Shown in pieces: positions 40,557-57,892 of a stretch of 64,000 nt of DNA. Under the pieces are notes generated by a model. It saw only the letters and a list, made by a program, of their open reading frames with translations, had not been told where the DNA came from and did no database searches. Each line of letters opens with the position of its first letter. The first letter of the stretch is position 1. Made by a program: the position numbers and the translations under genes. Source of the DNA: a virus (Duplodnaviria > Caudoviricetes); IMG/VR virus record IMGVR_UViG_2663763243_000005, positions 14,632 to 78,631 of that record. One strand, written 5' to 3'.

Positions 40557-40871
40557 ATGGCTAAATTAATGACATTAACCGAATGGTGTGATGAAACGTA
40601 TGCGACTGACAAGCCGACGATTCAAACACTCCAACGCTGGGCCAGAAACGGTAACTTTTACCCTGCGGCAGAAAAACACGGCAGACAGTATAGGGTAAAA
40701 CCTAATGCTATTTATATCGATCCGAAGGATTTCAATCTCGGTAAAAAAATCAAAGATGCCAAAAGCGCGGCCCCTGCGCGGAATGCGTTTATGGAGAAAG
40801 TGATCAATGACTCGGCGGAAAAAGTACGATGCGAACTTACCGCGCAATCTCACCTATCGCCATCGCTATAA
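40557..40871 (+). CDS. xis: Excisionase
   Basis: MTLTEW...P...TL.RWAR.G..YP...KHGR.YRV...A.Y; overlaps int. Confidence 0.9.
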   Translation: MAKLMTLTEWCDETYATDKPTIQTLQRWARNGNFYPAAEKHGRQYRVKPNAIYIDPKDFNLGKKIKDAKSAAPARNAFMEKVINDSAEKVRCELTAQSHLSPSL

Positions 40872-41886
40872 ATCATACTATTGGCGCAATCCGTTAACAG
40901 GGAAAGAAATCCCGTTAGGCCAAATCTCCCGCAGAGAAGCCGTTTCACAATCTATCGAGGCCAATAATTATGTTGAGCAAAACTACTCTCCTGTATTACT
41001 ACTGGAAAAATTGAAAGGCACACAAGAGTACACAATGACCTCCTGGCTTGAACGTTACGATGTCATATACAAGCGCAGAGAATTGGCAATGAACACTTAC
41101 AAAGTTCGCAAGGGGCAAATAGCCATGATCAGCGAAAAGATGGGCAATATGGTTCTGGCTAAAATCACCACCCGTCACGTTGCTGAATTTCTAGAGTTTT
41201 GGGTGGCACAGGACAAAAAAACCATGGCCGCCACCATGCGATCAGTGTTGTCTGATATTTTCCGAGAGGCGATTGTCGAGGGCCATATAGATAATAATCC
41301 AGTGACACCGACACGCTCAGCTAAACCGGTGGTGAAACGTGAGCGCCTGGAACTGGATCAGTATCTCGCTATTCGTGAGGTCGCTGACACATTACCGGCG
41401 TGGTTTGGGCTATCAATGGATCTGGCACTGGTGACGGGCCAACGACGTGAAGATTTATCACTGATGCGCTTTGACCAGATTGTTGATGGCAGATTACAGA
41501 TAGACCAAGGCAAAACAGGAGCCATGATCTCCCTGCCCTTAGATCTTGAGCTTAAAGCCGTTGGCCTACGTCTTAACACCGTGATTGAACAATGTAGATT
41601 AGCCAGTAAGACTGATTTTATGATAAGTGCTGGCATCAGAAAAAATAGCCCTGATGGCTCACTGCATCCAGATAGCCTGACAAAGAAATTCGTAACGGCG
41701 AGAAAAGGAACAGATTTTCGTTTTGATGAGAGTCCACCAACTTTTCACGAGATCAGAAGTCTCGCTGGGCGATTGTATGAAAAGGAAAAAGGTAAAGAAT
41801 TTGCGATGAAACTGCTGGGGCATAAATCGGAGAAGATGACGAACAAGTATCTTGATACGAGGGGTAAAGAATACGTAATGCTATAA
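40807..41886 (+). CDS. int: Lambda-family tyrosine integrase
   Basis: Arm-binding N-terminus; catalytic GQRRED, FHEIRSL, LGHKS and KY residues. Confidence 0.97.
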   Translation: MTRRKKYDANLPRNLTYRHRYKSYYWRNPLTGKEIPLGQISRREAVSQSIEANNYVEQNYSPVLLLEKLKGTQEYTMTSWLERYDVIYKRRELAMNTYKVRKGQIAMISEKMGNMVLAKITTRHVAEFLEFWVAQDKKTMAATMRSVLSDIFREAIVEGHIDNNPVTPTRSAKPVVKRERLELDQYLAIREVADTLPAWFGLSMDLALVTGQRREDLSLMRFDQIVDGRLQIDQGKTGAMISLPLDLELKAVGLRLNTVIEQCRLASKTDFMISAGIRKNSPDGSLHPDSLTKKFVTARKGTDFRFDESPPTFHEIRSLAGRLYEKEKGKEFAMKLLGHKSEKMTNKYLDTRGKEYVML

Positions 41887-41964
41887 AAGACCGAATATCA
41901 AAATTCGTGTAATTTTCGTGTATTTTCGTTTTTACTAAAAAATAACCTTTAAAATCAACAAGTT

Positions 41965-42152: not shown

Positions 42153-42365
42153 ATGATATCGACACTATTTATAGTCAGCCTAATACTAGCCGCAGTAATG
42201 ATCACCATTCACCCTGCTCTCTGTGTCCCGTTTGTTATCGCTGCTTACCTGTTAGCAGGTAAAGGCAATATGCACATGGATAGTAATACCAGCATCATTT
42301 TAGGGATCATCGGATTTATTCTGTTATTGGTTCTGTTCGTCATTGTGAATGACGCCTTCAAATAA
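42153..42365 (+). CDS. Small membrane protein
   Basis: 70 aa, almost entirely hydrophobic; GAGGG RBS. Confidence 0.7.
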   Translation: MISTLFIVSLILAAVMITIHPALCVPFVIAAYLLAGKGNMHMDSNTSIILGIIGFILLLVLFVIVNDAFK

Positions 42366-42478
42366 TTATTGATGGTGTAATGTAGATTAATCGCCGGATG
42401 CAACACATTGGTCGAATTGCTTAAAAATTGATTATTTGGTTAAATAATGCCATTTGATAAAAGGACTTGGGGTGAATT

Positions 42479-43036
42479 TTGCACTGCTGGAATTGGCATG
42501 ATTTTGAAGACGAGACGGAAGTTACCGAACATGACGAGTTTGACCAATACAACTTCAGCTCTGAATATGAGCCAAGAGAGCTGGTTGCCAGACAATTTTG
42601 GGTTGGAAAAGCTGAATCCGGTCACTTCTATACTATTGGTTTTGTAAAGATCGAAAAGCAATCTGTACTCAACAGCCTTTTAGGTGAGATGATCTACAGT
42701 AATCATCCCCTTGCCATTCCTAAAAGTGGCGCTTGGGTGGTAACATTCGACCTTGCCGATGAAGAAAATGATTTCGCTCATGTTAAACTTGATTATAAGG
42801 CTATAAAGGATTTAGTGTCTGAGGTTGCTTGTGCAGTTTATGACCATTATAATGTAACTAAGGCTGGGCTTTACTGTTGGTATGCTGCAAGGAAAGAACT
42901 TCTAAGCATTTATGATACGGCTCTCGGATTTGACTCTGACCGAAACATTAAGCTCAAGGTAATACCTTCTACGTCCAACTTTAATAAATTAGGTGATCAA
43001 GGGAGGGGTTATGCAATCATCACGAAATACTACTGA
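42479..43036 (+). CDS. Hypothetical acidic protein, possible degenerate GNAT-like fold
   Basis: TTG start after GGGGTG; beta-beta-helix-beta-helix pattern ending LYCWYAARKELLSIYD. Confidence 0.65.
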   Translation: MHCWNWHDFEDETEVTEHDEFDQYNFSSEYEPRELVARQFWVGKAESGHFYTIGFVKIEKQSVLNSLLGEMIYSNHPLAIPKSGAWVVTFDLADEENDFAHVKLDYKAIKDLVSEVACAVYDHYNVTKAGLYCWYAARKELLSIYDTALGFDSDRNIKLKVIPSTSNFNKLGDQGRGYAIITKYY

Positions 43037-43580
43037 ATTCCCGCCTGGCGATCAGCTTTATGCATCGTTGAATCGTAAGCTGAAAAAGACTTCAGCCAAC
43101 ATAACAAAGCGTAAACTTAATACTGGCGAGTACGTGATGTATCAAGGCAGAATAGTACCGGCTAATGTCGTAGAAGAGGCTAAAGCGGAAGCAGTAGAGG
43201 AAAGGCAGAGTCTCACTCATATTGCTGCAGATCGGCCAATGAGACACGTACTATTTCAGCCACTACGCGCTGGCCACCTAGGAGCTAAACGCCTGGATTC
43301 TGGTGCATGGATTGCGTGGATTGGTAGTCGGAAAAGCGTAACAGCCACTTCGGTAGAGACTTCAATCCGTCATCCGATGCACGTTATGGTAGCTGTACCC
43401 ATTAGACAAGATAGTTCTCAGGAGGTGCCAAAAGACGGCCAGCTCTTTTCTTATGATGCTAAATCTGGGCAGATGCTTCTGGTTGTAGCTCACGGGAAGA
43501 TTGGCGGCATGGTCAGGCGTTCGCACCGCTCAAGATCCCAGCAGCAAGCCATGGGGAACGTAGTTCTCAAAGCCAAATAG
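43011..43580 (+). CDS. Hypothetical basic protein, second gene of the operon
   Basis: GGGAGGGG RBS before ATG 43011; overlaps the upstream stop. Confidence 0.7.
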   Translation: MQSSRNTTEFPPGDQLYASLNRKLKKTSANITKRKLNTGEYVMYQGRIVPANVVEEAKAEAVEERQSLTHIAADRPMRHVLFQPLRAGHLGAKRLDSGAWIAWIGSRKSVTATSVETSIRHPMHVMVAVPIRQDSSQEVPKDGQLFSYDAKSGQMLLVVAHGKIGGMVRRSHRSRSQQQAMGNVVLKAK

Positions 43581-43598
43581 CCCCGAAAGGGGCTTTTT
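43579..43598 (+). terminator. Intrinsic terminator
   Basis: AGCCCC-GAAA-GGGGCT followed by a T-run. Confidence 0.8.
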
Positions 43599-43798: not shown

Positions 43799-44410
43799 CT
43801 AAAACAATTCCATGGTTTGCCCAGAGGCTGGCCCCGGTTTTAGTGCAAAAGTACCTTTGATCGGTTCATCCAGCAGCAGAAATTTATCCAATTGCAGAGC
43901 GGGGATAAATTTAAAACCTTCTTGCCCACGAGCTCTAGCTATTTCTCTAGTTTCCATGAGTATTCTACCAAGTACATTCATCCCGTAAAAGCTGCCATCT
44001 GATTCACGACGAGCTCCCCAAAAAAGGTCTTTTTCAGAATGTTCAACAATATTAATAACACCAGTAGAATTAAGGAGTTGAAAAAAAACCTCCCAATTTT
44101 GGCAAAGTTTTATGCGGACGCACCATTTCATTATGGAGACTCGATTTTTCTCCCAACCATCACGTGTTTTCGGCTCATAGTATCTGGCTACTTGCTTCGC
44201 CTCAAAGGGGTTGCTTAGGGTGATTATCTCCTTTTGTATTTCCGGATAGTCTGGGTAACGGCAGGCCTGATAGAGGATTTCACTAGACTGGATAGGAATA
44301 TCGTTAACATACAGCGGAAATCCTCGCGCCATGTTAGATAGCCCGCCCCATTTTTCCGTCGTTTTTCTGAAACTGACTGTCTCATTGTTTGGATAAATTC
44401 GGTAGCTCAT
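43799..44410 (-). CDS. NADAR (YbiA-like) domain protein
   Basis: GLSNM, SE.LYQA, W......MK.....K, IVEHS..D.FWGA and G.N.LGRILME motifs. Confidence 0.9.
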   Translation of the reverse strand: MSYRIYPNNETVSFRKTTEKWGGLSNMARGFPLYVNDIPIQSSEILYQACRYPDYPEIQKEIITLSNPFEAKQVARYYEPKTRDGWEKNRVSIMKWCVRIKLCQNWEVFFQLLNSTGVINIVEHSEKDLFWGARRESDGSFYGMNVLGRILMETREIARARGQEGFKFIPALQLDKFLLLDEPIKGTFALKPGPASGQTMELF

Positions 44411-44412
44411 AG

Positions 44413-45492
44413 TTACTGATTATACCCGGTTCTGCGCATCAATGGATACCAGCAATCCAGTGCCCAGTTTGGGATCCCATCGCGCTCATATCTTCCCCAC
44501 CAGAAAGCTAATGGAGTATTATTTGGACAATTTCGATAAGTGAAAATGGTTCCACCGAACCCTAGTCCAGGGAATGTTGAAAAGCCGAGAGGTTTGAGAA
44601 TCGGAGCGGGATTTTGACTTTGCTGAAGTATATAAAAACCAGCCTTTGTCAGTGCATATTCAAAACGATAGCGATCAGCCATCTTGAGGAATATGTCGTT
44701 TGGCCTAAAATGGGTCCTTTCAGTGCCTTTGCGCGATGTATAGATCGCCGGATGTTGGATCCAGTCTGGTAGGTCAATACCATTACTACGTAACCAGAAA
44801 ACTTCAGAAGATGAGGAATAACTAAGGCGATTTTCGCGCGTTTTGATGAATCCGTTTTTTTTGATAATAAGTCTGATATTTCGCCCTTGAAACCTTTCCG
44901 CAAGAGTTGTCTCTAGCATATAAGTTGCATATCTATGAGTCCCTAGGAACCACACGCGGATAGTCACATTACTTAGGTTAAAGTGTTCTACAAACCAAGT
45001 AATATCGCTAAAAGCCTTGTTCCCTGAAAAACAAACATCGTCGAAGTAAATGAATTTATTGAATTGTGCAACTCTTTTGTTTTTGGAATTTCTTGATAAG
45101 GTAACTATACCTAATCCTTCGAATCCCTCTGCTTGGGTTTCTAAAAGTTCCAGTAAATTAATCTGACTAGTCCCACGATTTGTTTCTTGTATATTAAGGA
45201 ATGCTGATTCGTGGATAATAGGTCTATTATTCTCACTCCTGAGAATATCATTAATTTTTTCTACATAATCATTTTTGTTGATATATGCATTTCGAAGTAA
45301 CGCCAGCGTTTGCTCAAGAATGAAAAGTTTGTCTCTTTCCTCAAATTGCTCAATCCAGCGACCTACATGTACTGAGTTCATCCCCTGCCGAGGGGCAAGT
45401 TCATAGCCCACAAGAATTTCTGCAATTTGTTCTTGTATAGCATTTTTTTGTTCGGATTCATTATTGTCCATAGGATTTTCACACATAATCAC
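44413..45492 (-). CDS. Phosphoribosyltransferase-like protein (PRTase-CE type)
   Basis: PRPP-loop FIYFDDVCFSGNK; N-terminal RWIEQF; C-terminal PLGF...G....F.YRNCPNNTP..FW. Confidence 0.8.
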   Translation of the reverse strand: MIMCENPMDNNESEQKNAIQEQIAEILVGYELAPRQGMNSVHVGRWIEQFEERDKLFILEQTLALLRNAYINKNDYVEKINDILRSENNRPIIHESAFLNIQETNRGTSQINLLELLETQAEGFEGLGIVTLSRNSKNKRVAQFNKFIYFDDVCFSGNKAFSDITWFVEHFNLSNVTIRVWFLGTHRYATYMLETTLAERFQGRNIRLIIKKNGFIKTRENRLSYSSSSEVFWLRSNGIDLPDWIQHPAIYTSRKGTERTHFRPNDIFLKMADRYRFEYALTKAGFYILQQSQNPAPILKPLGFSTFPGLGFGGTIFTYRNCPNNTPLAFWWGRYERDGIPNWALDCWYPLMRRTGYNQ

Positions 45493-45853
45493 TCCTTTTT
45501 ATACAGTCAACAAGACCAGTCCCAAAATTTTGTGAGTACACATGTGTAGTTTAATATAATGCTGTAGTATCACAATTTCATAATAACACATTGATTTATA
45601 TTCTTTTAAAGATCACTTTCACAAAAATGAATTTACGTGCATGTCTATCTGAATCAGAAGAATTATAGCGCCGCACTTAATGTAGATTTACCATTTTCTT
45701 AAGTACTCTTTTGGCACAGAGCCTTCTGTCAGATCTAATTACACTCAGGCGAGGCTGCAATCGAATTGGCAAGCCAAACCATCTATAACCATAACAAAAT
45801 CACTTTACCCAAAAGTTAATAAATCAGGGAGTCCTTCCAAACTCCCTTTCAAT

Positions 45854-48800
45854 TCACTTATTAAAGTACGGATTCACCCTTTCCACCGCCTGCTTTACCA
45901 GTTTATTTCTGGTTGCCATCAACCGGTCAATTTTTTCTCTTTTCTGATCCGCTGTTAGTATCCGGTCCCGCCTCATCATTTCAATCTGGGCATTCAGTGC
46001 TTTCACTTGCTTTTGCGTCGCTGTTAGCCCCTGACGCTGCGATAATTTCCCTCTATTTTCCTCTATCAATTCATTAGCATCATCGCCACGCCCCTGCTTA
46101 CGGAAGCTGTTAATAGTGCTGTTGATCTGGTTGGCTTCGGTCATCATGCGGTAAAAATCTTCAGTGAACTGGGTAGACTTGGCCGGATCTGAACCTCTGA
46201 AGAATGATTTAATCACCGGTAACTCATCCAACCGCATGGCCGGGGTTTCGCCGTAGTCTTTCAGGTTACGCATCAGAAGATTGGTCGCCCCCATCACATA
46301 GCCGCCCAAGCTGCCGGTGTAACCCATCACAATATGATCCAGCATCTTCGGTGACATATTGGTCGCCTCACCTATTTCACGCATTAATAGGCTGGTCTGG
46401 TCATTATAACGGGCCCCGGCCATCAAATTGCTGTCGGCCATGTTCTCAATCGGCCCACCTTTGAAGAAATCATAGTTAACATAAGCCTCGGCAATCGGCA
46501 TCGCGACTTGTGGGATAGGGTTGAATGCCATCGTTTCCATAAAGTTATGTGCCACCAGCTTGCCAAATTTAGCCCCGGTATCTTTACCGCCCAGCGCGCG
46601 GACAAACCGCTCAGGTAAAGTGCCAAATATCGCGCCAAACTCGAACGGTTTTGGAAAGCGGATATGCTGATCACCAATCCACGCATGCCAATAGGTGTCT
46701 TTATCCCAGTCTTGTAGCTCTTCATAACGTTTGTCGTCCCAATTCAGCGCCATCAGTGCCAGCGAGGCGGCGGTGATCATGCCGCCGCGTTTCAGCACTT
46801 CGCGCGGATTCTCTTTGATAGCTCGGCCTAATTTACTCAGCCCCTGCATCCGGGCGTTGAAGAACGGCAGCATATCACTCAGGTTTATCATGATATTACT
46901 GGCCCCCATCATGCTGAAATCCATCAAGTCACGCGACTCAAATGCTGCCTGCGCCTTACTTTTCCCTGATTTAATGGCGGATTCATATGTGGCCAGTCGG
47001 TTGGCGTTTTCTGCTGCTTCACTGAGATTTTTATATTTATGCAAACCCTGTTCAATCTTGCCCATCACCTCTTTGCTGTTGCGGGCGATTGAGGACTCAA
47101 ATTCTAGTATCTGACTATCGTTGTAACCTTTACGCCGTAGAACACTACGAATGGTTTTAGCAGTCGATGCCGGATCATAAACATTCGAATAACCACCACC
47201 AAAAGTGGCACCGGCAAACATCATATCCACCAGGCTATCATCAGTGCGTAATGCTTTTTTAAATCCGGCCCATGAAGCGATAACCGGCTTAAAACCATCT
47301 TTGTTAATGGCCCATGAATGAATAGAGTCACGCATAAAGTTACGGATGATAAAATCAGGCATTGATGTGGTGCTGACGGTCAGTACCTTTTTAGCCTGGC
47401 GGGCCGCTTTCATAAAGGTGGAATTACTGCGCTCAAGGTCAATCATGGTAAAGGCGCGATACAGTTCAGGATCATTAACCTGTACCAGTTTTTCCTGCCC
47501 ATCAACAAACACCTTCACCACATCTTTGCCGATGCGCTCAAAGTCCATCTTGTTCGGTGATTCAATCACCTCCAGCACACCAGTATCAGCAAGGTTCACC
47601 ACTGACCTGCGCATTGCTTCATTTTTCATCGAAGCATCGACCGATTTCGCCACGTAGTTAAACAGGTTTTCGATAGGATCCTTAATGGTCAAATCGCTGC
47701 CTTTTAACTTGCGCACGGTACTGCTCTGGTTAGCAATGCCTTTACTGGTCCACGGCCCCTTCACCTCACCATTTTCTGCTTCACGGTAATAGGGCAAGTA
47801 CCAGGCATCCTCCCACTGTGCGCGGCTTTCTGGATCAATCAATCCCATATCCTGTTGCAGATCCAGAATCGACTTAATAAAGGCATCATACTTTTTCTTT
47901 TGACCTTCGAATAAAGCCTCATTACCCCGGTTGAGGGTTTTCATATAAGCAATTTCGTCAGCATTAAAGTTGTTCTCTTTGCCCTCTTTCATCAGTCGTT
48001 CAGAGCGATGGCCGGCGATCCATTTAAAGAAGTTTTCCCGATGGTTTCCCAGTCCGTCGAGAATACCCATAAGAGCATCCTCTTTACCGGTACCGGATTG
48101 ACGCTCGATTATCCCTTCGGCTTTGTTATAGCGCGGCAAGCCATGCTCTAAAGTGGCAGCAGTAACAGAGCCTGCTCCGGCAGCCATACGCGCTCCAATG
48201 TAGGCAGAACTTCGTGCATCATTGATACCAGCGGCATCTTCGGCATACTTCAGCGGAGCCATGCCATCAAAGGTTTTAGTATTGAGTTTACGGCCGGTTT
48301 CTTTTAGCCAGGCTTTCAGTTCCGTTTTATCTTTGCTGGTCACGGTGCCGTAGAAAGTCTTGGCCTTATCAAACCACCCCTGCTCAACGTTAAAGCCCAT
48401 TTTGCGGTTGGTTTCAGCATCCATTGATGGGTTAGCAGTGCGGGAGTAAAGTGCCTTATTCTTGCGAATATCGGTCGATGAGAGTATATTTTCAACTGAA
48501 TCTTGATTTGGTGAACCGCGTTTGAGCAATTGAAGCTCTTGGGCCGTACCAGATTGGGATTCTGAACCCTGATAAGTGTTCTCCTTGGGCAATTGGAGCC
48601 CAACAGAACGAAGCTTATCGGGGTTTTGTTTTTCTCGGCGGTATAACGCTAAACCAGCATCCTCCATACCTTGAACTTTCGCCATGCCCCCCACTGTGCC
48701 GTACACTGAAGCAACTCGATTAACTTCCAAGCGCCCACGTTTTGCATTCATATGAATAGCAGTAACCACCGGGTTTCCGTTTGCATCATGAGCCTCCAGA

Positions 48801-51800
48801 AGAGCAACTATTGCGTTATCCTGTGTTGCTGAGCGATATACTGCTAACGGGTCATGCATCAGCTCAGGAAGCTGCTCAATGACCTCAGTCGGTACGTTGT
48901 GTTTTATTCCATTGGTCGCTTTACGTACCGTATCACGAGAAATTACCATCTCCACATTGGGAGCGCCAAGCGCACGGAGTACCGGCGGTGTTCTGCCTAT
49001 TGAAACCGTTATGTCATCGGACCGTAACGAACGCATCGCTTTATCAAGCTCAGATCTATATTGTTCGGATTCCACTGGTAATGGCTTGAGTGGGTCCACA
49101 TCATCATGTTTCGAATACAGTGCGTCTGACCGAGAGAAAGTATTATCGAACTCCCGCGTTCCCGGCTGTTCACCATCATACATAGCCGTCTTTTTGAAGC
49201 GCCCGGCGACCGTGCGCAGAATATTACGTATTTCCGTTGGGGAAATGTCATTCGCATTCATGATGCCCGTTTTCTTCAATCCATTGATCAGCACAGAAAC
49301 AAAACGGTTCCACATCGCCCCAAGACCGCTGAGTTCTGAGCGCTCCGCCATGTGGGCTAAGAATTCATTAGCCTGCATTTCAGGGGACTCATTGCGGTAT
49401 GATTTATCGACTTCCCGCCAAACATCCTGAATTTCTTTATTTTTGCTGTCGCGAGTCTGATGTAATACGCGCATGATACGGTCGTATTCCACATCACCAA
49501 TGACTGAAGCCAGCCCGTGGTGCGCCAAGACCTCATGACGTAATTTCGCCCGAAGCTCGCGGTCGGAAGTAATGTTATCCGCCACCACAATCACCCGGCT
49601 GAGTTCCGGCTGATAAATAGCATGGACAATGCCGAATTCTTTCGGGATCCCGCTCGGCATCATGGCAGCCGCTTCAGCTTGGGTTTGCACTACCTTAACT
49701 TTGATTTTGGCTGCGCCATTCAAATTGCGCACCCAGACATCAGCGATAACTTGGGCCCGCCCTTGCCGTATTCCCTGAGTGGGTTTGTCGCCAGCGGCGG
49801 TATGACCGGTATCTGAAATCACATTGCCTTTGCCAATGTCAGTACCCTTACGCGAATAGAAAGCGATACCTTTATCGGTTGGCTTGGTTTTGAGGGTTTG
49901 GAATAGGTGATCAAATGCCTGGCGCACGCCGCCATTTAATTCAGCTTCGGTTGGATAAGCATAGGTTTTAGGATTTGCGTGTTCGTCAGCTTTGCGCAGG
50001 TTAACCAGATAATCGTTAGTGATACCTTTACTCTCGGCTTTATCCAGCAGATAGCGTTCAAATGCTCGCGCTGACATTTCCAGTTTAGTTGTCCAATATG
50101 CTTTGCTTCGCCCACTGTCCAGTATTGCCGCCCGTTCCCTCATTCCACTATTAGTGACTTTCATGACTGCGCTCTTAAAGGCGTCATATACCTCTTGCCT
50201 GACCGGATGAGTAATCTCTTGCCTTTTACCACTGCTAAGCTCATAACGAGGTCGTATACGATCGGTAATAAATTCAGATGAACGCTTACCGGACGACTCG
50301 CCATGGACATCATAGGTACCAAAATAGTTATCCAGTGCATGGAACCACTCATGTGCAAGTGAGCCTGCGCCATTACCTTTAGTTAGATTGATAACCACTT
50401 GCCCAGGCTCATAATGAGCTTTGGCCCCCGCCTTACCTCGCGCGCCAAATGCCAAGCCCAATTCGCCATTCAATGACAGCGATTTTGGCGGCACATTCAG
50501 TAATTCGGCCATATCAACCAACGAGTCATAAGCATCGTTTAATTCAGTTTGGCGGCGTGCTCCCTCAACATAGTTACCAAACTGAACACCTCGGAAGCCG
50601 AAGGCATCACTAAATTGTTCAGGCGTCACATTGCCCTTACGGCGCTCAATGCCGGTACGTGGCTCATTGGTCGCTTTGCGTTGTTCCTCCCGAGAGACTT
50701 TGCGTAATTTATCCAGTTTGGCTTCTATTTCTGCGCGGTTCTCTGCCAGATAAGCGCGTGCCTCATTGGGTGTTTTGAAGCCCGCTTTCAGCGGCAAAAT
50801 GCCCATGGCCCCTTTGTAGCCAATAAACACGCTCTTATCTGCCCGCCGGGTATAGATCTCTAACTTAGCCTGTCTAGGCGTTAACTGAGCCTGTTTAAGC
50901 GCGTCATCTCCTTTATCACTATTAATCTTGGTCTCAATAAATTCCTTGGCTTTGGGTAATAGCTCCGGCATTGAACCCGCTGAAATATCAGTTTTCATCC
51001 CTCCAGGGGTAACCAGCTCATATAGGGTTTTCCCACCGGGATAGCTCTTGCCATCAAAGTAAGTGTAATGGCCGGAACGAATTGAGTATTTTGACGCTTC
51101 GGCCATCTGCTCAGGCTTAAACTGCGAGATTAAGTCAATAGCATCTGCGGCAGATCGTAAGGAGGACTTACTGCGAAAAATGGTTTTTATATCATCAACA
51201 CTCGCATGGCTATTGATAATAGAACTCGCTAAATCACGAACCCCCTTAACCTGTTCAGCCCACTGATTAAGCTTATAAGGGGATCCCGGTTTGTTCGGGA
51301 TAAACGAGCGCAATGCTGCAAGTAATGCCAGTTTCTCTGGTTCAATGCCATTTTCATGCATTTTGCTGTAATCAGGGTGTGGGAAGAGTTTCGAAAGAGG
51401 CTGTTTCTTAATTTCTTCGATATCACGGTCGGCTTTCAGTGACTCGGCCAACTGGCCCCATTTATGCTTCGCCGCCCCCTTAAGTTCCTCACCAAAATCA
51501 TCAATTTTTACGTTACTGTTTTTGGCTGGCTGCTCACCAGATGCCACAACGCCCTCATTGGAGGGCGCTGTTTTCGTGTTAGCTGTTGTGGATTCCGGCG
51601 GCAGACGCACACCAAAGCCATCACCAACGGGTTCAATCACCGCCCCCGGTATCTTGGCCCACTTCGTGAATCTGGCTACTTTCTCATTGGGGAATGGCTT
51701 ACCGTGGTGCAATCTCAACTCACCTTGTGGACTTTCTGGCTCAATGTGACCTTCTTTGGTTGATGCAATACCGCTATCAGTTGATTTTGCAGGTAATCGC

Positions 51801-54037
51801 ACGCCAAAACCGTCGCCTACTGGCTCAATAACAGCACCTGGCATTTTTGCCCACTTAGTGAATCTGGCCACTTTCTCATTAGGGAATGGCTTGCCGTGAT
51901 GCAATCTCAACTCGCCAAGAGTTTCACCTTTTGCATAAGCTTCGGTACGTGCATCTATAGGGACACCACCAGCACGCTGACGCTGATCGGTAATCGCTGT
52001 TTCAGACTGTTCCCCCATAGCCTCAGTAAAGCGGCGCACATCTTTACGCTGCCCCCCGTCAAATTGTGGCGCTTGCCCAGATTGAACCTCATCCGGGTTA
52101 GTGGCTGGCCCATCAGCAAAGATGATGTTTTTATCCGTAATGGCCTGCGGATCCGTTTGCCCATCGTAGGTATGGGTTTCGCGCACCGCAGCTTGTTGCT
52201 CTGCCTGCTCTCTCGGCAAATACACTTGCCCTCGAGTCTGCTCTCCGGCAGTAAATTGCGGCGCGGCACCGGCTTGGGTTTCATCACCTTGAATTGGCCC
52301 CGGCATAGGGAAACCTTCGCCCGGATGAATATTACCGGGAGCTGGCAGGCGTGGCGTTCGCTGCGCCCGAATCTGGTCGGCTTGCTCAAGTATCGCTAAT
52401 TCATCAGGGGTAAAACCTTGCTCTCCTGATTCCATTTGCTGCTGAATAAGATCTTGTGCGGTCGGCTGTGCTTCTGGCTCTGCCAGTGAACGCTGAACAT
52501 CGCTATCATCAGCAAAGCCTTGCACCCGAGGATCCTGACGTAAATAAGCTGGGGTATCGCGGAAATCATCAATTTGAGAGTTGGGTACACCATTTTCACT
52601 CACTGAACTCCTCTGTACAGCCACTTCAGGGGAAGCCTGATTTTCTGCCTGCGGTGTAACCTCCTGCTGTTTGGAGGGATCGATATTTTCAGATACGGGT
52701 GAACCGTCAGCATTAACTGGGTTTTCTGATGTTGCTTCTGCTGCTGATCTGTGGCCGCGAATTCCACCGACAGTACCGGCTGCGCCACCAATAGCACCAC
52801 CTAGTACCATATTATTGACGCCAGTCTCTAGCACATCTTTCATTGGATCTATCTTCTGTCCCGCAGTATCGATCAATTGACGGTTTTGAAGATAACGTTG
52901 GGATGTGCCTTGTACTAACTCAGTCCCCCCTTCTGCAACCGTACCCGTTGCAAATCCTGACATGACACTTTTCGCAGCTCCCTTTTTGGTCAAAAGGTTA
53001 AGAATGGTGTGATCTCCAAGCGTCGATGCGGCAATATTTATCGCTAACATGCGTGGGTCAGCGGTAATACTCCCGGCAGCCTGCTCTGCAACTTGACTAC
53101 GTGCCAGTGTTAGTTTTTGAGTGTCAGATAACTCTTTATGCGCGGGATCACTATCTACCTGAGAAAATGCTTTCTGAAATGTCGGACTCGCAATGAGTTG
53201 TTCAAAAGGTATCGCGTTTATTTCATCACGTAATTCATTACCAGATGCACCCTGAGCAGAGCCAGCCATGATCCCAACATATCCTGTTTTCTGCGCGACC
53301 TGCCTCGCCTGAGATGCCGTCTCTCTTGCCGTCATTCTGGCTGCTTCTTCGGGTAATGTCTTGCTGAGTCGATTAAATACAGCCTGCTCTACTGCTCGTT
53401 CTGCTCCCTGAGCCCCCATCTTGGCAATCCAACCACCAGTGAGCATTTGTGCAATACTTGGAACCGCATTCATCATCCAGGTATCTTTATCAAACAAACC
53501 ACTACCGGCCTTCCAGTTACCTTGCTTATCTTTCTCTACAAATTTTAGTGCGGCTGCATCTCTAGCGCCTTCGCTATAGCTACTTTGGATTTCTTTTGAA
53601 ACTTCTCCAGTCAATGAACCCGCACTTTTTATGAACGCGGTACCCGTAGCAGATAGAGGATTTCCCGAATTTTCACGCATTACATTTAGCATTTCGGGAC
53701 TGACAGGGATATTAATTGCAGGCTCTCTCTCGCCATTACGATACTCCTCAGCCTTGCTTCCCAATTTTTGGACACCAGCATTAAATAACTGAGCACCACT
53801 ATGCACCAATTCGAAGGGGGCTGAGGCTATAGCAAGACCAACATCTTTTAAACCTATACTAGGGTCATTACTCTGCGGCGCTTTTGACTGTCGCCCAGCG
53901 GCTTCACGCGCGGCCCTAACGGCACCCCAGTCAAAACCGGTATTAGCATTCTCACCGGGCTGCTGGATATTGAGTGTTTCACGATTACTGTTATTGGTTT
54001 GCTCTTCTGGACGTTGTTGCTGCGGATCGTAGGTCAT
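45854..54037 (-). CDS. Giant polyvalent/ejection protein (LPD1-like, metallopeptidase-like, MuF-C-like, LPD38-like domains)
   Basis: 2727 aa; FGFRGVQFGN...GSLAHEWFHALD; RHEVLAHHGL; G.TPPVL; PFFNARMQG...RFPKPFE. Confidence 0.85.
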   Translation of the reverse strand: MTYDPQQQRPEEQTNNSNRETLNIQQPGENANTGFDWGAVRAAREAAGRQSKAPQSNDPSIGLKDVGLAIASAPFELVHSGAQLFNAGVQKLGSKAEEYRNGEREPAINIPVSPEMLNVMRENSGNPLSATGTAFIKSAGSLTGEVSKEIQSSYSEGARDAAALKFVEKDKQGNWKAGSGLFDKDTWMMNAVPSIAQMLTGGWIAKMGAQGAERAVEQAVFNRLSKTLPEEAARMTARETASQARQVAQKTGYVGIMAGSAQGASGNELRDEINAIPFEQLIASPTFQKAFSQVDSDPAHKELSDTQKLTLARSQVAEQAAGSITADPRMLAINIAASTLGDHTILNLLTKKGAAKSVMSGFATGTVAEGGTELVQGTSQRYLQNRQLIDTAGQKIDPMKDVLETGVNNMVLGGAIGGAAGTVGGIRGHRSAAEATSENPVNADGSPVSENIDPSKQQEVTPQAENQASPEVAVQRSSVSENGVPNSQIDDFRDTPAYLRQDPRVQGFADDSDVQRSLAEPEAQPTAQDLIQQQMESGEQGFTPDELAILEQADQIRAQRTPRLPAPGNIHPGEGFPMPGPIQGDETQAGAAPQFTAGEQTRGQVYLPREQAEQQAAVRETHTYDGQTDPQAITDKNIIFADGPATNPDEVQSGQAPQFDGGQRKDVRRFTEAMGEQSETAITDQRQRAGGVPIDARTEAYAKGETLGELRLHHGKPFPNEKVARFTKWAKMPGAVIEPVGDGFGVRLPAKSTDSGIASTKEGHIEPESPQGELRLHHGKPFPNEKVARFTKWAKIPGAVIEPVGDGFGVRLPPESTTANTKTAPSNEGVVASGEQPAKNSNVKIDDFGEELKGAAKHKWGQLAESLKADRDIEEIKKQPLSKLFPHPDYSKMHENGIEPEKLALLAALRSFIPNKPGSPYKLNQWAEQVKGVRDLASSIINSHASVDDIKTIFRSKSSLRSAADAIDLISQFKPEQMAEASKYSIRSGHYTYFDGKSYPGGKTLYELVTPGGMKTDISAGSMPELLPKAKEFIETKINSDKGDDALKQAQLTPRQAKLEIYTRRADKSVFIGYKGAMGILPLKAGFKTPNEARAYLAENRAEIEAKLDKLRKVSREEQRKATNEPRTGIERRKGNVTPEQFSDAFGFRGVQFGNYVEGARRQTELNDAYDSLVDMAELLNVPPKSLSLNGELGLAFGARGKAGAKAHYEPGQVVINLTKGNGAGSLAHEWFHALDNYFGTYDVHGESSGKRSSEFITDRIRPRYELSSGKRQEITHPVRQEVYDAFKSAVMKVTNSGMRERAAILDSGRSKAYWTTKLEMSARAFERYLLDKAESKGITNDYLVNLRKADEHANPKTYAYPTEAELNGGVRQAFDHLFQTLKTKPTDKGIAFYSRKGTDIGKGNVISDTGHTAAGDKPTQGIRQGRAQVIADVWVRNLNGAAKIKVKVVQTQAEAAAMMPSGIPKEFGIVHAIYQPELSRVIVVADNITSDRELRAKLRHEVLAHHGLASVIGDVEYDRIMRVLHQTRDSKNKEIQDVWREVDKSYRNESPEMQANEFLAHMAERSELSGLGAMWNRFVSVLINGLKKTGIMNANDISPTEIRNILRTVAGRFKKTAMYDGEQPGTREFDNTFSRSDALYSKHDDVDPLKPLPVESEQYRSELDKAMRSLRSDDITVSIGRTPPVLRALGAPNVEMVISRDTVRKATNGIKHNVPTEVIEQLPELMHDPLAVYRSATQDNAIVALLEAHDANGNPVVTAIHMNAKRGRLEVNRVASVYGTVGGMAKVQGMEDAGLALYRREKQNPDKLRSVGLQLPKENTYQGSESQSGTAQELQLLKRGSPNQDSVENILSSTDIRKNKALYSRTANPSMDAETNRKMGFNVEQGWFDKAKTFYGTVTSKDKTELKAWLKETGRKLNTKTFDGMAPLKYAEDAAGINDARSSAYIGARMAAGAGSVTAATLEHGLPRYNKAEGIIERQSGTGKEDALMGILDGLGNHRENFFKWIAGHRSERLMKEGKENNFNADEIAYMKTLNRGNEALFEGQKKKYDAFIKSILDLQQDMGLIDPESRAQWEDAWYLPYYREAENGEVKGPWTSKGIANQSSTVRKLKGSDLTIKDPIENLFNYVAKSVDASMKNEAMRRSVVNLADTGVLEVIESPNKMDFERIGKDVVKVFVDGQEKLVQVNDPELYRAFTMIDLERSNSTFMKAARQAKKVLTVSTTSMPDFIIRNFMRDSIHSWAINKDGFKPVIASWAGFKKALRTDDSLVDMMFAGATFGGGYSNVYDPASTAKTIRSVLRRKGYNDSQILEFESSIARNSKEVMGKIEQGLHKYKNLSEAAENANRLATYESAIKSGKSKAQAAFESRDLMDFSMMGASNIMINLSDMLPFFNARMQGLSKLGRAIKENPREVLKRGGMITAASLALMALNWDDKRYEELQDWDKDTYWHAWIGDQHIRFPKPFEFGAIFGTLPERFVRALGGKDTGAKFGKLVAHNFMETMAFNPIPQVAMPIAEAYVNYDFFKGGPIENMADSNLMAGARYNDQTSLLMREIGEATNMSPKMLDHIVMGYTGSLGGYVMGATNLLMRNLKDYGETPAMRLDELPVIKSFFRGSDPAKSTQFTEDFYRMMTEANQINSTINSFRKQGRGDDANELIEENRGKLSQRQGLTATQKQVKALNAQIEMMRRDRILTADQKREKIDRLMATRNKLVKQAVERVNPYFNK
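51599..51916 (-). repeat. 42-codon internal duplication in the giant protein
   Basis: 51599-51724 and 51791-51916 both encode GELRLHHGKPFPNEKVARFTKWAK(I/M)PGAVIEPVGDGFGVRLP. Confidence 0.95.
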
Positions 54038-54056
54038 TTAACAGACTCCAAATTTT

Positions 54057-54100
54057 AGGCATAAAAAAAGCCCCACTAAAAAGTGAGGCTTGGCATCTTT
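54057..54100 (-). terminator. Intrinsic terminator, copy 1 of an identical 44-bp repeat
   Basis: AAGCCTCAC-TTTTTA-GTGGGGCTT plus T-run on -; identical to 62056-62099. Confidence 0.8.
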
Positions 54101-54158
54101 CTGTAAACTATCTTAAAATCTTATTCTTTGGAAGTATCACTTACCCAAGAGCTAAATC

Positions 54159-54938
54159 ATGACTAAAGAAGAACAATATTATCGAGAAATATCGACAAAA
54201 CGCTTCAAAATCACATTTCATGAAAATGATAAAGCGAAAGTAAAATGTCCAATATGTTTAAAATCTGATGCGTATCTGTCTTGGGAGACCATGCAACTAG
54301 AAGAGACTCAAGAATCTGTCAAATATAGGAGTCATGAAGAGTGGGAACCAGATTGGCTAGAGTACGACTATTCGGCCACCTATGAATGTGTCGAATGCAA
54401 ACAAAGAATACGTTCGTTGGGAACTGCTGCTAACCGTTATCATGAAAATTATGACCCTCGTACTGGAGATCATTATATCGATGAGTATAAGGTCTTTAGC
54501 CCTCAGTTTTTCCTACCATCATTAGTCATATTCGAACCTACGCAGCAATGCCCTAAAGAGGTCAAAAAAGTTTTGTTTGACTCGTTTAAACTGGCCTTTT
54601 GTGATATCCCTTCGGCTGCAAATAAAGTCCGTGTTGCATTAGAAGTATTAATATCTTTAGAAATACCAGCGAATGAGCTAGTAAATAAAACCTTACATCA
54701 GAGAATCCCTCTCTTAGAAGCAAAGTATCCAACTATTGATGGAATTAAAGATATATCTCTTGCCATAAAATGGATTGGAAATGCTGGCAGTCATCAGCAA
54801 GATGGTGTTCCAGAGTTTGCATTAAAATTTGCGTATGAGGCATTTGAAGTTATTTTGAGAGAAATATATGAAACCAAAAAATCAACTATTGGCGAAATGT
54901 CTGGGTTAGTAAATACTTTGAAGGGAAAGTTTAACTGA
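54159..54938 (+). CDS. Zn-ribbon + DUF4145 (HEPN-like) protein, moron
   Basis: CPIC...CVEC; SAANKVRVALE...L.QRI...IKWIGNAGSH. Confidence 0.8.
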   Translation: MTKEEQYYREISTKRFKITFHENDKAKVKCPICLKSDAYLSWETMQLEETQESVKYRSHEEWEPDWLEYDYSATYECVECKQRIRSLGTAANRYHENYDPRTGDHYIDEYKVFSPQFFLPSLVIFEPTQQCPKEVKKVLFDSFKLAFCDIPSAANKVRVALEVLISLEIPANELVNKTLHQRIPLLEAKYPTIDGIKDISLAIKWIGNAGSHQQDGVPEFALKFAYEAFEVILREIYETKKSTIGEMSGLVNTLKGKFN

Positions 54939-56330: not shown

Positions 56331-56342
56331 AATAATGATCCT

Positions 56343-56603
56343 TTAGAAGAAACTACTGGCCAGCAAACCCACTGCGGCACCAATACCCGCACCAATCGGC
56401 CCACCCGCAGCACCATAGGTGGCACCCACCGCCATGCCAGTACCGGCCCCGACGCCAATCATGCTCATTTGGCTCTGTTTCTGTTGGGATTTGAGCTGCT
56501 CATTGGCAGATTCGCGCTGTATCTCACGGTTAGAAGCATCACCTAGCCCTTGCATGGCCTGCTGCCGAGTATCCCGTGCAACATCAATCAGTCCGTATCC
56601 CAT
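56343..56603 (-). CDS. Small ejection protein with glycine zipper
   Basis: C-terminal GPIGAGIGAAVGLL. Confidence 0.7.
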   Translation of the reverse strand: MGYGLIDVARDTRQQAMQGLGDASNREIQRESANEQLKSQQKQSQMSMIGVGAGTGMAVGATYGAAGGPIGAGIGAAVGLLASSFF

Positions 56604-56986
56604 TAGTGACTCCCCCCGCCAATACTCATTTGCTCACGTAGACTTGCACTGCCACCGGTTAAAATATTCATCTGCCGATCTTGCTCAGCCTCCCGGATTC
56701 CATTCTTCGCCCCGGCAGTGGCCAGTGCCGAGCGCAGACCTAAACTGTTATCGTTCGGGTTTGCCGTCTGAGTAGTGCCATAACGCGCCAACTGATTTTG
56801 AGTACCCAACTGAGCAGAACGCAGACTGTTGGCAGAGCTATCACTGACGCGGGTTAATTGCTGATTCATCAGTTCGCCGCTGGTAGCCAAACCCATCAGC
56901 TCTTTTTGCTTTGGATAAAAACGAGTGAGCCAATCGTTATACTGATCACGAATAAGATTGGCATAGGTATCAGATGCTTGTCCCAT
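56603..56986 (-). CDS. Small virion protein
   Basis: Coupled ORF; AGGAGG RBS. Confidence 0.7.
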   Translation of the reverse strand: MGQASDTYANLIRDQYNDWLTRFYPKQKELMGLATSGELMNQQLTRVSDSSANSLRSAQLGTQNQLARYGTTQTANPNDNSLGLRSALATAGAKNGIREAEQDRQMNILTGGSASLREQMSIGGGSH

Positions 56987-57001
56987 AACTACCTCCTATC
57001 A

Positions 57002-57637: not shown

Positions 57638-57652
57638 AATGACCTCCCATTT

Positions 57653-57799
57653 TCACCACCAACGAACTACGGATAGCACGCTGGCCACACCATATAAAAT
57701 ACCGACCAGTACAGTGAAGTAATACATGCGCCGGAGTGTTTTACTTCGTTCAAACAGTTCTAGAGCTTTCACAACCCATTCTCCTAGGTTAATATTCAC
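57653..57799 (-). CDS. 48-aa single-TM peptide ending RWW (type I toxin-like)
   Basis: Below ORF-track cutoff: (M)NINLGEWVVKALELFERSKTLRRMYYFTVLVGILYGVASVLSVVRWW; SD-like GGAG before two possible GTG starts. Confidence 0.6.
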   Translation of the reverse strand: MNINLGEWVVKALELFERSKTLRRMYYFTVLVGILYGVASVLSVVRWW

Positions 57800-57801
57800 C
57801 C

Positions 57802-57872: not shown

Positions 57873-57892
57873 CGCTTATCTACTCGTTTACA

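What the first reader, a model, noticed from the sequence alone, without database searches (positions are those of the whole stretch)
43799..45492. PRTase + NADAR two-gene operon: candidate phosphoribosylation writer/eraser defence or TA system
Seen: an AT-rich operon with 2 nt between genes, near the att end of prophage B. It encodes a PRTase with an intact DD..SG PRPP loop and NCPNNT tail, then an intact NADAR. Known: NADAR enzymes cleave N-glycosidic ribose bonds (YbiA; DarG1 reverses DarT1 guanine ADP-ribosylation), and a PRTase-containing toxin acts in ShosTA with a DprA-like partner. Here no ADP-ribosyltransferase or DprA gene is visible. Inference: the PRTase adds phosphoribose to a nucleotide or nucleic acid and NADAR removes it, giving a toxin/antitoxin pair with new chemistry, probably anti-phage.
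Basis: partly seen in the sequence, partly recalled or inferred. Interest (0 to 1): 0.85.

Follow-up and report, generated by a model that had tools for sequence, protein, structure and literature searches.

The report
Prophage copy of DS-32 phage defence
This two-gene operon is a member of DS-32, a phosphoribosyltransferase-plus-NADAR anti-phage system already validated in E. coli, so the find itself is ordinary, but how the pair works is still unknown and its relatives hint that it acts on DNA.

Summary
Two intact genes lie on the minus strand 2 nt apart: a PRTase-CE protein (44413-45492, likely start ATG 45486) and a NADAR protein (43799-44410). They have their own AT-rich promoter region.

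It is not a new system. Both proteins pass NCBIfam's equivalog cut-offs for DS32_1 and DS32_2. DS-32 is a PRTase + NADAR pair shown to protect E. coli from phages in the DefensePredictor study. Its authors already likened the NADAR to DarG and suggested toxin-antitoxin partner swapping. No mechanism is published in what I could search.

New context found here:
- A NADAR gene follows the PRTase in 81 of 81 related loci across many phyla.
- In 38 of 77 complete cases the NADAR has a C-terminal extension. By Pfam these are HsdS-type in 30, DUF1156 methylase-type in 4 and helix-hairpin-helix in 2.
- A Q-x-x-[L/M]-F peptide resembling the beta-clamp-binding motif follows the NADAR core in 39 of 75 distinct tails.

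These points favour a writer/eraser pair acting on DNA. This is inferred and untested.

Verdict: new member of a known kind, moderate interest.

The parts
45493..45853 (-). Own upstream region of the operon: 34% GC, promoter-like hexamers (TTAAAA-18-TATTAT with TG at 45609-45580; another at 45581-45553), and AGGAG at 45496-45492
   Evidence: A terminator-like hairpin of the upstream 2727-aa gene lies at 45847-45826. These are consensus matches only.
44413..45492 (-). DS-32A: PRTase-CE phosphoribosyltransferase-like protein, 359 aa as an ORF and probably 357 aa from ATG 45486
   Evidence: NF053875 DS32_1_antiphage 272.6 bits (cut-off 250), Pfam PF24390 120.7 bits, phrog_8525 E 1e-112. AlphaFold2 model pLDDT 87.9; the best Foldseek hits are type I PRTases.
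45022..45042 (-). PRPP-loop motif D151-D152-V-C-F-S156-G157
   Evidence: D151, D152 and G157 are invariant in 26 sequences. The motif aligns with the PRPP loop of PyrR, 'ILVDDVLYTG'; regex hit.
44512..44526 (-). P323-N-N-T-P327, the PNNxP motif shared with retron-associated PRTases
   Evidence: Invariant. The retron motif Gx14PNNxP is described in PMC12746101. Here the spacing from G309 is 13 residues, so the exact regex fails.
43799..44410 (-). DS-32B: YbiA-type NADAR N-glycosidase, 203 aa
   Evidence: NF053876 DS32_2_antiphage 263.2 bits (cut-off 240), Pfam NADAR 73.4 bits. phmmer to YbiA 2b3w E 2.6e-14. AlphaFold2 pLDDT 93.1; Foldseek to YbiA TM 0.78 and to 8bau TM 0.70. E44, E123, D128, W131 and G132 are invariant in 31 sequences.
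43802..43819 (-). C-terminal peptide Q-T-M-E-L-F in a tail predicted to be disordered; a weak, one-residue-longer form of the family's Q-x-x-[L/M]-F motif
   Evidence: Residues 194-203 have pLDDT < 50. The motif occurs in 39 of 75 distinct tails against a shuffle mean of 0.4. The clamp-binding consensus QL(S/D)LF is from PMC9690074 section 1.4.
43579..43594 (.). Two-way terminator-like hairpin about 200 nt past the NADAR stop, shared with the convergent plus-strand unit 42153-43580
   Evidence: Pattern match only.

Best explanation
The operon is a member of DS-32, a two-gene anti-phage system carried here as a self-promoted cassette between two phage-like regions.

Most likely mechanism:
- DS-32A is the effector. 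It is a type I PRTase that uses PRPP to attach 5-phosphoribose to a nitrogen of a nucleobase, most likely in DNA, which would make lesions that block replication.
- DS-32B is the antidote. It is a YbiA-type NADAR N-glycosidase that cuts that ribosyl-nitrogen bond and keeps host DNA clean.
- The antidote appears to be held on DNA. In this branch that would be through a C-terminal peptide like the beta-clamp-binding motif. In other lineages it is through fusion to HsdS, a DUF1156 methylase or a helix-hairpin-helix domain.
- Infection would tip the balance so that phage DNA, or the infected cell, is poisoned.

Shown here: family membership, gene order, intact motifs, the two folds, and strict linkage of the two genes.

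Shown by others for a relative: protection from phage.

Inferred: use of PRPP, the acceptor, toxicity of A, reversal by B, and clamp binding.

My odds:
- member of DS-32: 0.9
- defensive in its host: 0.75
- B neutralises A's product enzymatically: 0.55
- the substrate is DNA: 0.4
For: Membership:
- Both proteins exceed NCBIfam's equivalog cut-offs, 272.6 against 250 and 263.2 against 240.
- DS-32 as a PRTase + NADAR pair reduced plating or plaque size of E. coli phages when cloned with its native promoter (preprint sections 7 and 9).

The enzymes look active:
- The PRPP loop and the C-terminal motifs are invariant, and the fold is that of a type I PRTase.
- The NADAR aligns with YbiA through the SE..YQ and D..WG segments, and these residues are invariant.

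Linkage:
- A NADAR gene lies directly downstream on the same strand in 77 of 81 loci by ORF search. tblastn finds it in the other 4, where it is cut by contig ends.
- These 81 are the best 80 of 248 genomic relatives plus 1 viral contig.

Pointers to DNA:
- Of 77 complete NADAR ORFs, 38 carry extensions. By Pfam, 30 have Methylase_S (HsdS), 4 have DUF1156 and 2 have HhH_3.
- The gene upstream of the PRTase is an N6 DNA methylase (HsdM-type) in 24 of 35 fused loci.
- A PRTase-CE relative carries an HRDC domain.
- Q..[LM]F occurs in 39 of 75 distinct tails against a shuffle mean of 0.4 and a maximum of 3. It sits in a tail predicted to be disordered and matches QL(S/D)LF.

Chemistry of relatives:
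- All NADARs tested remove ADP-ribose from guanine in DNA, and YbiA cleaves N-glycosidic bonds of riboflavin intermediates (PMC11125620 and PMC11543638, passages).
- The PRTase toxin ShosT binds PRPP but none of the purines tested, and its antitoxin binds DNA (PMC11961720, section 7 and abstract).

The NADAR is more conserved than the PRTase in 77 of 77 loci, with medians of 45.9% and 29.8% identity among the 73 distant ones. That fits an antidote constrained by catalysis.
Against: - No experiment on this locus exists, and none on the mechanism of DS-32 is known to me.
- The window's own tail, QTMELF, fits the clamp motif poorly, with Q one residue too far from LF.
- 36 of 75 distinct tails lack Q..[LM]F.
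- The sequences are related, so the shuffle control overstates the significance of the motif.
- The one metabolite result for a PRTase-CE-type effector, Retron-Eco11, is a fall of about 50% in PRPP, not a DNA adduct. That effector was not toxic alone (PMC12746101).
- ShosT is reported to disturb purine metabolism.
- Fusion to HsdS could serve to couple or guard the restriction system, without DNA being the substrate.
- The identity of these proteins to the E. coli DS-32 that was tested is unknown. It is given only in supplementary tables, which I could not open. The scores are only 22-23 bits above the cut-offs.
Confidence: 0.5

Rival explanations
1. Poisoning of the nucleotide pool. DS-32A spends PRPP or makes a toxic small phosphoribosyl compound, as reported for Retron-Eco11 and ShosT. 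DS-32B hydrolyses that small molecule, as YbiA does with riboflavin intermediates. A variant of this idea is that the two enzymes run a futile cycle: base plus PRPP gives a nucleotide, which is split back to base plus ribose-5-phosphate. That would drain PRPP during infection, and neither protein would be an antitoxin.
For: Activation of Retron-Eco11 lowered PRPP by about 50% (PMC12746101). ShosT 'disrupts purine metabolism' (PMC11961720 abstract). DS-32B is closest to YbiA (E 2.6e-14, TM 0.78) and nearly reaches TIGR02464, the riboflavin-intermediate N-glycosidase model (62 bits against 73.7). Strict linkage in 81 of 81 loci fits two co-operating enzymes equally well.
Against: This does not explain why the NADAR is fused to HsdS, DNA methylase or HhH domains in 36 of 77 loci, nor the clamp-like peptide, nor the HRDC fusion of a PRTase relative. 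ShosT bound none of the purines tested.
Confidence: 0.28
2. Neutralisation by binding. DS-32B holds DS-32A inactive through direct contact, as DarG also does with DarT. The conserved C-terminal peptide would be the docking element, or a degron that makes the antidote short-lived. NADAR catalysis would be secondary.
For: The genes are 2 nt apart, which suggests coupled translation. The tail motif is conserved and predicted to be disordered. DarG binds DarT directly, and the authors raise the same possibility for NADARs (PMC11125620 discussion). ShosA's unstable C-terminus triggers ShosTA.
Against: The NADAR active-site residues are invariant across phyla, and the NADAR is far more conserved than its partner in 77 of 77 loci. 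That is unusual for a purely binding antitoxin. In the HsdS fusions the motif is internal, which argues against a C-terminal degron. ShosT and ShosA do not bind each other.
Confidence: 0.15
3. Not a defence system in this host. The pair would be a phage auxiliary or counter-defence module, for example nucleotide or NAD salvage or removal of host ADP-ribose marks from phage DNA, or else a decayed passenger.
For: The operon sits in phage-like DNA. Orphan NADARs of T4-like phages neutralise DarTG1 (10.1101/2024.07.11.602962; abstract seen in the listing).
Against: Both proteins match the validated defence system at equivalog level. Both frames are intact with invariant motifs. The same pair sits inside restriction-modification operons in bacteria and in the gpA-to-portal interval of a P2-like phage. 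That interval being a defence hotspot is recalled from Rousset et al. 2022, of which I saw only the title and abstract in the listing.
Confidence: 0.07

Closest known systems
DS-32 (DefensePredictor-discovered system 32; NCBIfam NF053875 and NF053876)
   Same: The same two families in the same order, PRTase then NADAR, and both above the equivalog cut-offs. DS-32 was validated as anti-phage in E. coli MG1655 from its native promoter.
   Different: The locus lies in a different host lineage; the closest homologues are in Sodalis, Serratia, Proteus, Pectobacterium and Rahnella. There is no megablast match in 5,426 E. coli genomes. The scores are only just over the cut-offs. Identity to the tested E. 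coli proteins and their phage spectrum are unknown to me because the supplements are closed.
DarTG1 (DarT1 ADP-ribosyltransferase toxin plus NADAR antitoxin)
   Same: Toxin gene first and NADAR second. The NADAR hydrolyses a ribosyl-nitrogen bond on guanine in DNA, and the system is anti-phage (PMC11543638 and PMC11125620, passages).
   Different: There is no ART domain here. The donor would be PRPP and not NAD+. The NADAR is YbiA-like (Glu in 'IVE', closest to 2b3w) and not of the DarT1-linked BC4488 type. The DefensePredictor authors found no similarity between DS-32A and DarT.
ShosTA
   Same: A PRTase-domain toxin whose DD pair is needed for toxicity. The acceptor is unknown, the antitoxin is linked to DNA, and neutralisation needs no binding.
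   Different: ShosT has an N-terminal pyrophosphatase-like domain, and its partner is DprA-like. Neither is present here. PADLOC gave no ShosT match. The PRTase belongs to Pfam PRTase-CE.
Retron type III-A PRTase effectors (Retron-Eco11)
   Same: The same Pfam family and a shared PNNxP motif, with weak PADLOC PRTase_III-A matches at E 2e-6. These are anti-phage effectors dependent on the PRPP loop.
   Different: There is no reverse transcriptase and no retron RNA (none among the ORFs scanned; Rfam 0 matches). The partner here is a NADAR. The glycine-to-PNN spacing is 13 and not 14.
E. coli K-12 ybiA with ybiB, and YarT-YbiA
   Same: A YbiA-type NADAR is encoded with a DNA-binding PRTase-like protein (YbiB) in a LexA-controlled operon. 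In myxobacteria a YbiA-type NADAR is the antitoxin of an ART toxin (PMC11125620).
   Different: From my own knowledge, YbiB belongs to a different PRTase fold class (TrpD2). No defence role is reported for ybiA and ybiB.

Membership tests
DS-32 anti-phage system | Protein A matches NF053875 (DS32_1, equivalog) at or above 250 bits | tested here: met
   272.6 bits, E 4.5e-81, profile positions 3-322 of 322.
DS-32 anti-phage system | Protein B matches NF053876 (DS32_2, equivalog) at or above 240 bits | tested here: met
   263.2 bits, E 6.8e-79, profile positions 1-181 of 181.
DS-32 anti-phage system | Two adjacent genes on the same strand, PRTase then NADAR | tested here: met
   2 nt between them. 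The same order is seen in 81 of 81 related loci.
DS-32 anti-phage system | Protects cells from phage | not testable with these tools
   Shown only for the E. coli system of the preprint.
Type I phosphoribosyltransferases | PRPP loop: hydrophobic strand, two acidic residues, then [ST]-G | tested here: met
   F-I-Y-F-D151-D152-V-C-F-S-G157; aligned to the PyrR PRPP loop (E 0.17 only).
Type I phosphoribosyltransferases | Rossmann-like PRTase core fold | tested here: met
   The top Foldseek hits are HGPRT, UPRT, OPRT and XGPRT, with probability 0.94-1.0, E 1e-3 to 1e-2 and target TM 0.3-0.55, covering the core only.
Type I phosphoribosyltransferases | Transfers phosphoribose from PRPP to an acceptor | not testable with these tools
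NADAR superfamily, YbiA branch | NADAR domain and fold | tested here: met
   Pfam 73.4 bits against 35.1. Foldseek to 2b3w E 8e-9 and TM 0.78; to 8bau TM 0.70.
NADAR superfamily, YbiA branch | Conserved catalytic residues, with Glu (not Asp or His) in the last strand | tested here: inconclusive
   E44, E123 and D128 are invariant and align with YbiA's SE, VEH and ND..WG segments. Which residue the papers number as catalytic was not checked against a structure.
DarTG1 | DarT1 ADP-ribosyltransferase toxin next to the NADAR | tested here: not met
   The partner is PRTase-CE. Neither protein matches an ART domain or a PADLOC DarT model, and the two flanking ORFs scanned (42479-43036 and 42993-43580) have none either.
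ShosTA | ShosT (pyrophosphatase-like domain plus PRTase) with DprA-like ShosA | tested here: not met
   No DprA and no PADLOC ShosT or ShosA match. The N-terminal region is helical and not Rossmann-like.
Retron type III-A | Reverse transcriptase and ncRNA next to the PRTase | tested here: not met
   No RT family in the two flanking ORFs scanned (42479-43036, 42993-43580), and the upstream neighbour is the 2727-aa virion-type protein. Rfam gave 0 matches in the window. Only weak PRTase_III-A similarity.
Beta-clamp-binding proteins | QL(S/D)LF-like peptide in a flexible terminus | tested here: inconclusive
   In the family, Q..[LM]F occurs in 39 of 75 distinct tails. The window protein ends in QTMELF in a disordered tail, which is an imperfect match. 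Binding was not tested.

The most novel reading that the evidence does not exclude
DS-32 writes and erases a DNA mark not yet described: 5-phosphoribosylation of a base from PRPP. Self is told from non-self by where the eraser sits. The NADAR rides on the host beta-clamp, or in other lineages is built into the HsdS or methylase subunit of a restriction system. Host DNA is therefore cleaned continuously. Phage DNA copied by a phage replisome is not cleaned and becomes blocked. The hsdM - PRTase - NADAR::hsdS operons would then be restriction systems with a second, lesion-based arm.
Probability: 0.25. Interest if true: 0.85.

Novelty: new member of a known kind. Interest (0 to 1): 0.42.

Why it matters
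As a locus it adds only a prophage-borne, divergent member to a published defence family that is rare. DS-32A was found in 3 of 401 genomes sampled from the order of one carrier.

The wider pattern found on the way is more useful. The PRTase and the NADAR are linked in every locus examined, across many phyla. The NADAR is repeatedly fused to DNA-recognition subunits and carries a peptide like the clamp-binding motif.

If this holds, it gives a concrete and testable route to the unknown acceptor of defence PRTases, a question also left open for ShosT and for retron effectors. It also points to a possible new DNA modification.

Tried and rejected
Searches that found nothing:
- Megablast of the operon against E. 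coli genomes and phages gave no match.
- Megablast of window 45800-64000 against phages gave no match. Window 20000-43700 gave only short hits at about 75% identity to a replication gene and an integrase.
- tblastn of the PRTase against GenBank phages gave no match.
- A single-protein scan of genome contigs found no relative. The alignment-based scan was needed.
- A profile search of PDB sequences with the PRTase alignment gave only marginal PyrR hits, E 0.17 or weaker.

Prophage borders:
- No tRNA, no Rfam match, and no direct repeat of 17 nt or more linking 41.8-45.9 kb to the rest of the 78.6-kb record. The att site and the owner prophage stay undefined.
- The gene next to the 79%-identical PRTase in L001 is unrelated to the window's 2727-aa gene, so the cassette moves between phage backbones.

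Motif: the exact retron motif Gx14PNNxP is not matched.

Literature limits:
- No paper listed in the top 15 holds NADAR together with HsdS or type I restriction.
- Five papers hold both 'NADAR domain' and 'clamp'. I therefore do not claim that the clamp link is absent from print.
- Supplementary tables of the DefensePredictor paper (DS-32 sequences and phage spectrum) were closed.
Full report
**1. What is in the sequence.**

Two minus-strand ORFs occupy the stated coordinates: 44413..45492 (359 aa) and 43799..44410 (203 aa). The junction reads TAA-CT-ATG, so 2 nt separate them.

The ORF finder starts the first gene at GTG 45492. An ATG at 45486 sits 5 nt after AGGAG and gives 357 aa, the length of most of the closest homologues. 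I take that as the real start.

A 361-nt intergenic stretch of 34% GC lies upstream. It follows a terminator-like hairpin of the preceding gene and holds promoter-like hexamers. The pair therefore looks like its own transcription unit. GC is 39.4% and 42.8% for the two genes, against 46.4% for the window.

**2. Identity.**

*Gene 1*
- Pfam PRTase-CE, 120.7 bits.
- phrog_8525, E 1e-112.
- NCBIfam NF053875 'DS32_1_antiphage', 272.6 bits against a curated cut-off of 250.

*Gene 2*
- Pfam NADAR, 73.4 bits.
- NF053876 'DS32_2_antiphage', 263.2 bits against 240.
- PADLOC (2023) gives only weak hits, to retron PRTase_III-A and to PDC-M42C.

*What DS-32 is.* DS-32 comes from the DefensePredictor study. 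I read sections 7 and 9 and the figure legends of the preprint 10.1101/2025.01.08.631726, and passages of the Science version PMC13092281.
- Transcription units were cloned with their native promoters on a low-copy plasmid in E. coli MG1655.
- A unit counted as validated if it gave smaller plaques or at least a ten-fold lower efficiency of plating against a panel of 24 phages.
- DS-32 is described as a PRTase (A) plus a NADAR protein (B).
- B resembles DarG in structure, while A resembles DarT in neither sequence nor structure.
- The authors suggest 'TA partner swapping' and a distinct mechanism.

The phage spectrum and the sequences are in supplements I could not open.

**3. State of the two enzymes.**

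*PRTase.* In a 26-sequence alignment spanning 25-83% identity, the PRPP-loop residues Y149, D151, D152 and G157 are invariant. So is a C-terminal block: P301-L-G303, G311-F-G313, N321, P323-N-N325, P327-L328, W331, P350-L351.
- The AlphaFold2 model is confident (pLDDT 87.9, pTM 0.87).
- Its best PDB matches are type I PRTases (HGPRT, UPRT, OPRT, XGPRT). Probabilities are high but TM scores are modest, because only the core of about 150 residues aligns.
- The PNNxP motif is the one noted for retron PRTase effectors (PMC12746101), although the glycine spacing is 13 and not 14.

*NADAR.* The protein aligns with E. coli YbiA at E 2.6e-14.
- Its model has pLDDT 93.1 and superposes on YbiA (TM 0.78) and on the Phytophthora NADAR bound to ADP-ribose (TM 0.70).
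- E44, Y47, Q48, C50, R51, E123, D128, W131 and G132 are invariant in 31 partners from many phyla.

Both proteins look catalytically intact.

**4. Genomic setting.**

The window is bases 14632-78631 of a 78.6-kb record held as a virus.
- Window 1-41.9 kb is a complete phage-like region. It has terminase, portal, a tail protein with tape-measure-like and lysozyme matches, an exonuclease, a DNA methylase and a lambda-type integrase at 40807-41886.
- 45.8-64 kb holds late genes of a second element. These are a 2727-aa virion-type giant protein, an internal virion protein, a tail fibre and a tail-fibre assembly protein.
- The operon lies between the two, next to a convergent plus-strand unit of three ORFs with no family match.

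I could not find an att repeat, a tRNA or an Rfam match. 'Near the att end of prophage B' is therefore plausible but unproven.

A cassette with a PRTase 79% and a NADAR 90% identical lies in an IMG/VR contig, between a P2-type gpA nickase and the portal gene, beside an HNH gene. I recall that interval as the P2 defence hotspot of Rousset et al. 2022, of which I saw only the title and abstract in a search listing. The cassette thus moves between unrelated phage backbones.

The system is rare. DS-32A was found in 3 of 401 genomes sampled from the order of one carrier. phmmer against 1.84 billion representatives gives 631 relatives at E <= 1e-3.

**5. New context bearing on mechanism.**

An alignment-based scan of species-representative genomes found 248 relatives. 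The best 80 were fetched, and one viral contig was added.

*Linkage.* A NADAR ORF lies directly downstream on the same strand in 77 of these 81 loci. In the other four, tblastn finds it cut off by the contig end. That makes 81 of 81. The hosts range over Proteobacteria, Bacteroidales, Chloroflexota, Planctomycetota, Acidobacteriota, Spirochaetia, Patescibacteria and others, going by the record titles.

*Fusions of the NADAR.* The 77 complete NADAR ORFs divide as follows:

| Form | Number |
|---|---|
| Stand-alone | 39 |
| Extension of 120-164 aa | 3 |
| Extension of 460-570 aa | 31 |
| Extension of 1000-1170 aa | 4 |

- Pfam on the 38 extended proteins finds Methylase_S (the HsdS specificity domain) in 30, DUF1156 in 4 (with weak methylase matches in single members) and HhH_3 in 2.
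- The gene just upstream of the PRTase was scanned in 35 of these loci, the 31 + 4 with long extensions. It is an N6 DNA methylase of HsdM type in 24, a SNF2 helicase with NOV_C in 4, and has GmrSD_N in 4.
- The recurrent layout is therefore hsdM - PRTase - NADAR::hsdS.

*Fusions of the PRTase.* Longer PRTase-CE relatives carry LRR, Sel1, FGE-sulfatase, DnaJ, nucleoside-deoxyribosyltransferase-like or HRDC domains. This is the pattern of an effector joined to sensor or nucleic-acid-binding modules.

*Relative conservation.* The NADAR is more conserved than the PRTase in all 77 loci compared. Medians among the 73 distant ones are 45.9% and 29.8% identity.

**6. A tail motif.**

Beyond the NADAR core the sequence becomes variable, but a short peptide recurs. 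Examples are QPSLF, QGSLF, QLSLF, QIDLF, QSELF and QSDMF.
- Q..[LM]F occurs in 39 of 75 distinct tails, against a mean of 0.4 and a maximum of 3 in 1000 shuffles. Relatedness inflates this contrast. The point is that the motif persists inside an otherwise unconserved segment.
- In stand-alone proteins it sits at the very end. 28 of 40 have [LMIF]F within the last nine residues.
- In the HsdS fusions it lies in the linker.
- It matches the bacterial beta-clamp-binding consensus QL(S/D)LF, 'at their C-terminus' (PMC9690074, section 1.4).

The window protein ends in GQTMELF, in a tail with pLDDT below 50. That is a weaker form, one residue longer. Whether it binds the clamp, binds the PRTase or acts as a degron is open. 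The internal position in the fusions argues against a degron.

**7. How it most likely works.**

*Published facts about relatives*
- NADARs cleave ribosyl-nitrogen bonds. YbiA does so on riboflavin intermediates, and every NADAR tested does so on ADP-ribosyl-guanine in DNA. The DarT1 linkage is at guanine N2 (PMC11543638 and PMC11125620).
- Some NADARs also act on ADP-ribosyl-cytidine (PMC12945103, abstract).
- ShosT binds PRPP, needs its DD pair for toxicity, bound none of the purines tested, and is countered by a DNA-binding protein without direct contact (PMC11961720 section 7; PMC12961424 abstract and section headings).

*Best reading.* Combined with sections 5 and 6, my best reading is a toxin/antidote pair. 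A transfers phosphoribose from PRPP to a base in DNA. B removes it and is kept on DNA. I put the enzymatic-antidote step at about 0.55 and DNA as the substrate at about 0.4.

*Main rival.* The main rival is metabolic: loss of PRPP or a toxic small product. Activation of Retron-Eco11 halved PRPP. The two DS-32 enzymes could even form a futile cycle that hydrolyses PRPP.

*Other rivals.* A binding-type antitoxin and a non-defence role are less likely, for the reasons given under the rival explanations.

**8. Verdict.**

This is a new, prophage-borne member of the published DS-32 family, and the mechanism of that family is still unknown.

The restriction-system fusions and the clamp-like peptide are, as far as my limited searches show, not described. 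They are leads and not results.

Noticed in passing
L018-L077 (31 loci) and L030, L070, L074, L079: In distant bacteria the PRTase-NADAR pair is built into restriction-modification operons as hsdM - PRTase - NADAR::hsdS. Pfam finds the HsdS domain in 30 of the 38 extended NADAR proteins. In 4 loci the NADAR is fused to a DUF1156 methylase-type protein downstream of a SNF2/NOV_C helicase gene.
   Followed up: partly
L003:5001-8641: The Enterobacter mori locus has two PRTase paralogues in tandem (5001-5984 and 7071-8024, both about 44% identical to the window's) followed by a single NADAR gene.
   Followed up: no
window 45854-54037 (-): A 2727-aa phage protein matches phrog_616 (1290 bits) and, weakly, a DarB-like antirestriction family. 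It holds an HEWFH stretch, which I recall as metallopeptidase-like; no tool tested this. It looks like a polyvalent virion protein.
   Followed up: partly
window 42153-43580 (+): A convergent unit of three ORFs (70-aa hydrophobic, 185 aa, 195 aa) ends at a strong hairpin at 43579-43594. The 185-aa and 195-aa ORFs have no family match in Pfam, NCBIfam, PHROGs or PADLOC apart from a marginal RNA_ligase hit (E 0.024); the 70-aa ORF was not scanned. It may be another unknown moron.
   Followed up: partly
window 41895-41940: Just past the integrase stop there are close direct repeats of the type ATTTTCGTGTA in AT-rich DNA. They may be integrase arm-type sites marking the att region.
   Followed up: no
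window 30517-32712 (-): A 731-aa DNA methyltransferase (phrog_116, phrog_23072) lies in the first phage-like region.
   Followed up: no
L001:3906-6829: A cassette with a PRTase 79% and a NADAR 90% identical lies between a P2-type gpA nickase gene and the portal gene of an IMG/VR contig, next to an HNH endonuclease gene on the opposite strand.
   Followed up: partly
P0148, P0151, P0200, P0133, P0236: PRTase-CE relatives are fused to FGE-sulfatase, LRR, Sel1, HRDC and nucleoside-deoxyribosyltransferase-like domains. This suggests a modular effector used in several other, undescribed systems.
   Followed up: no
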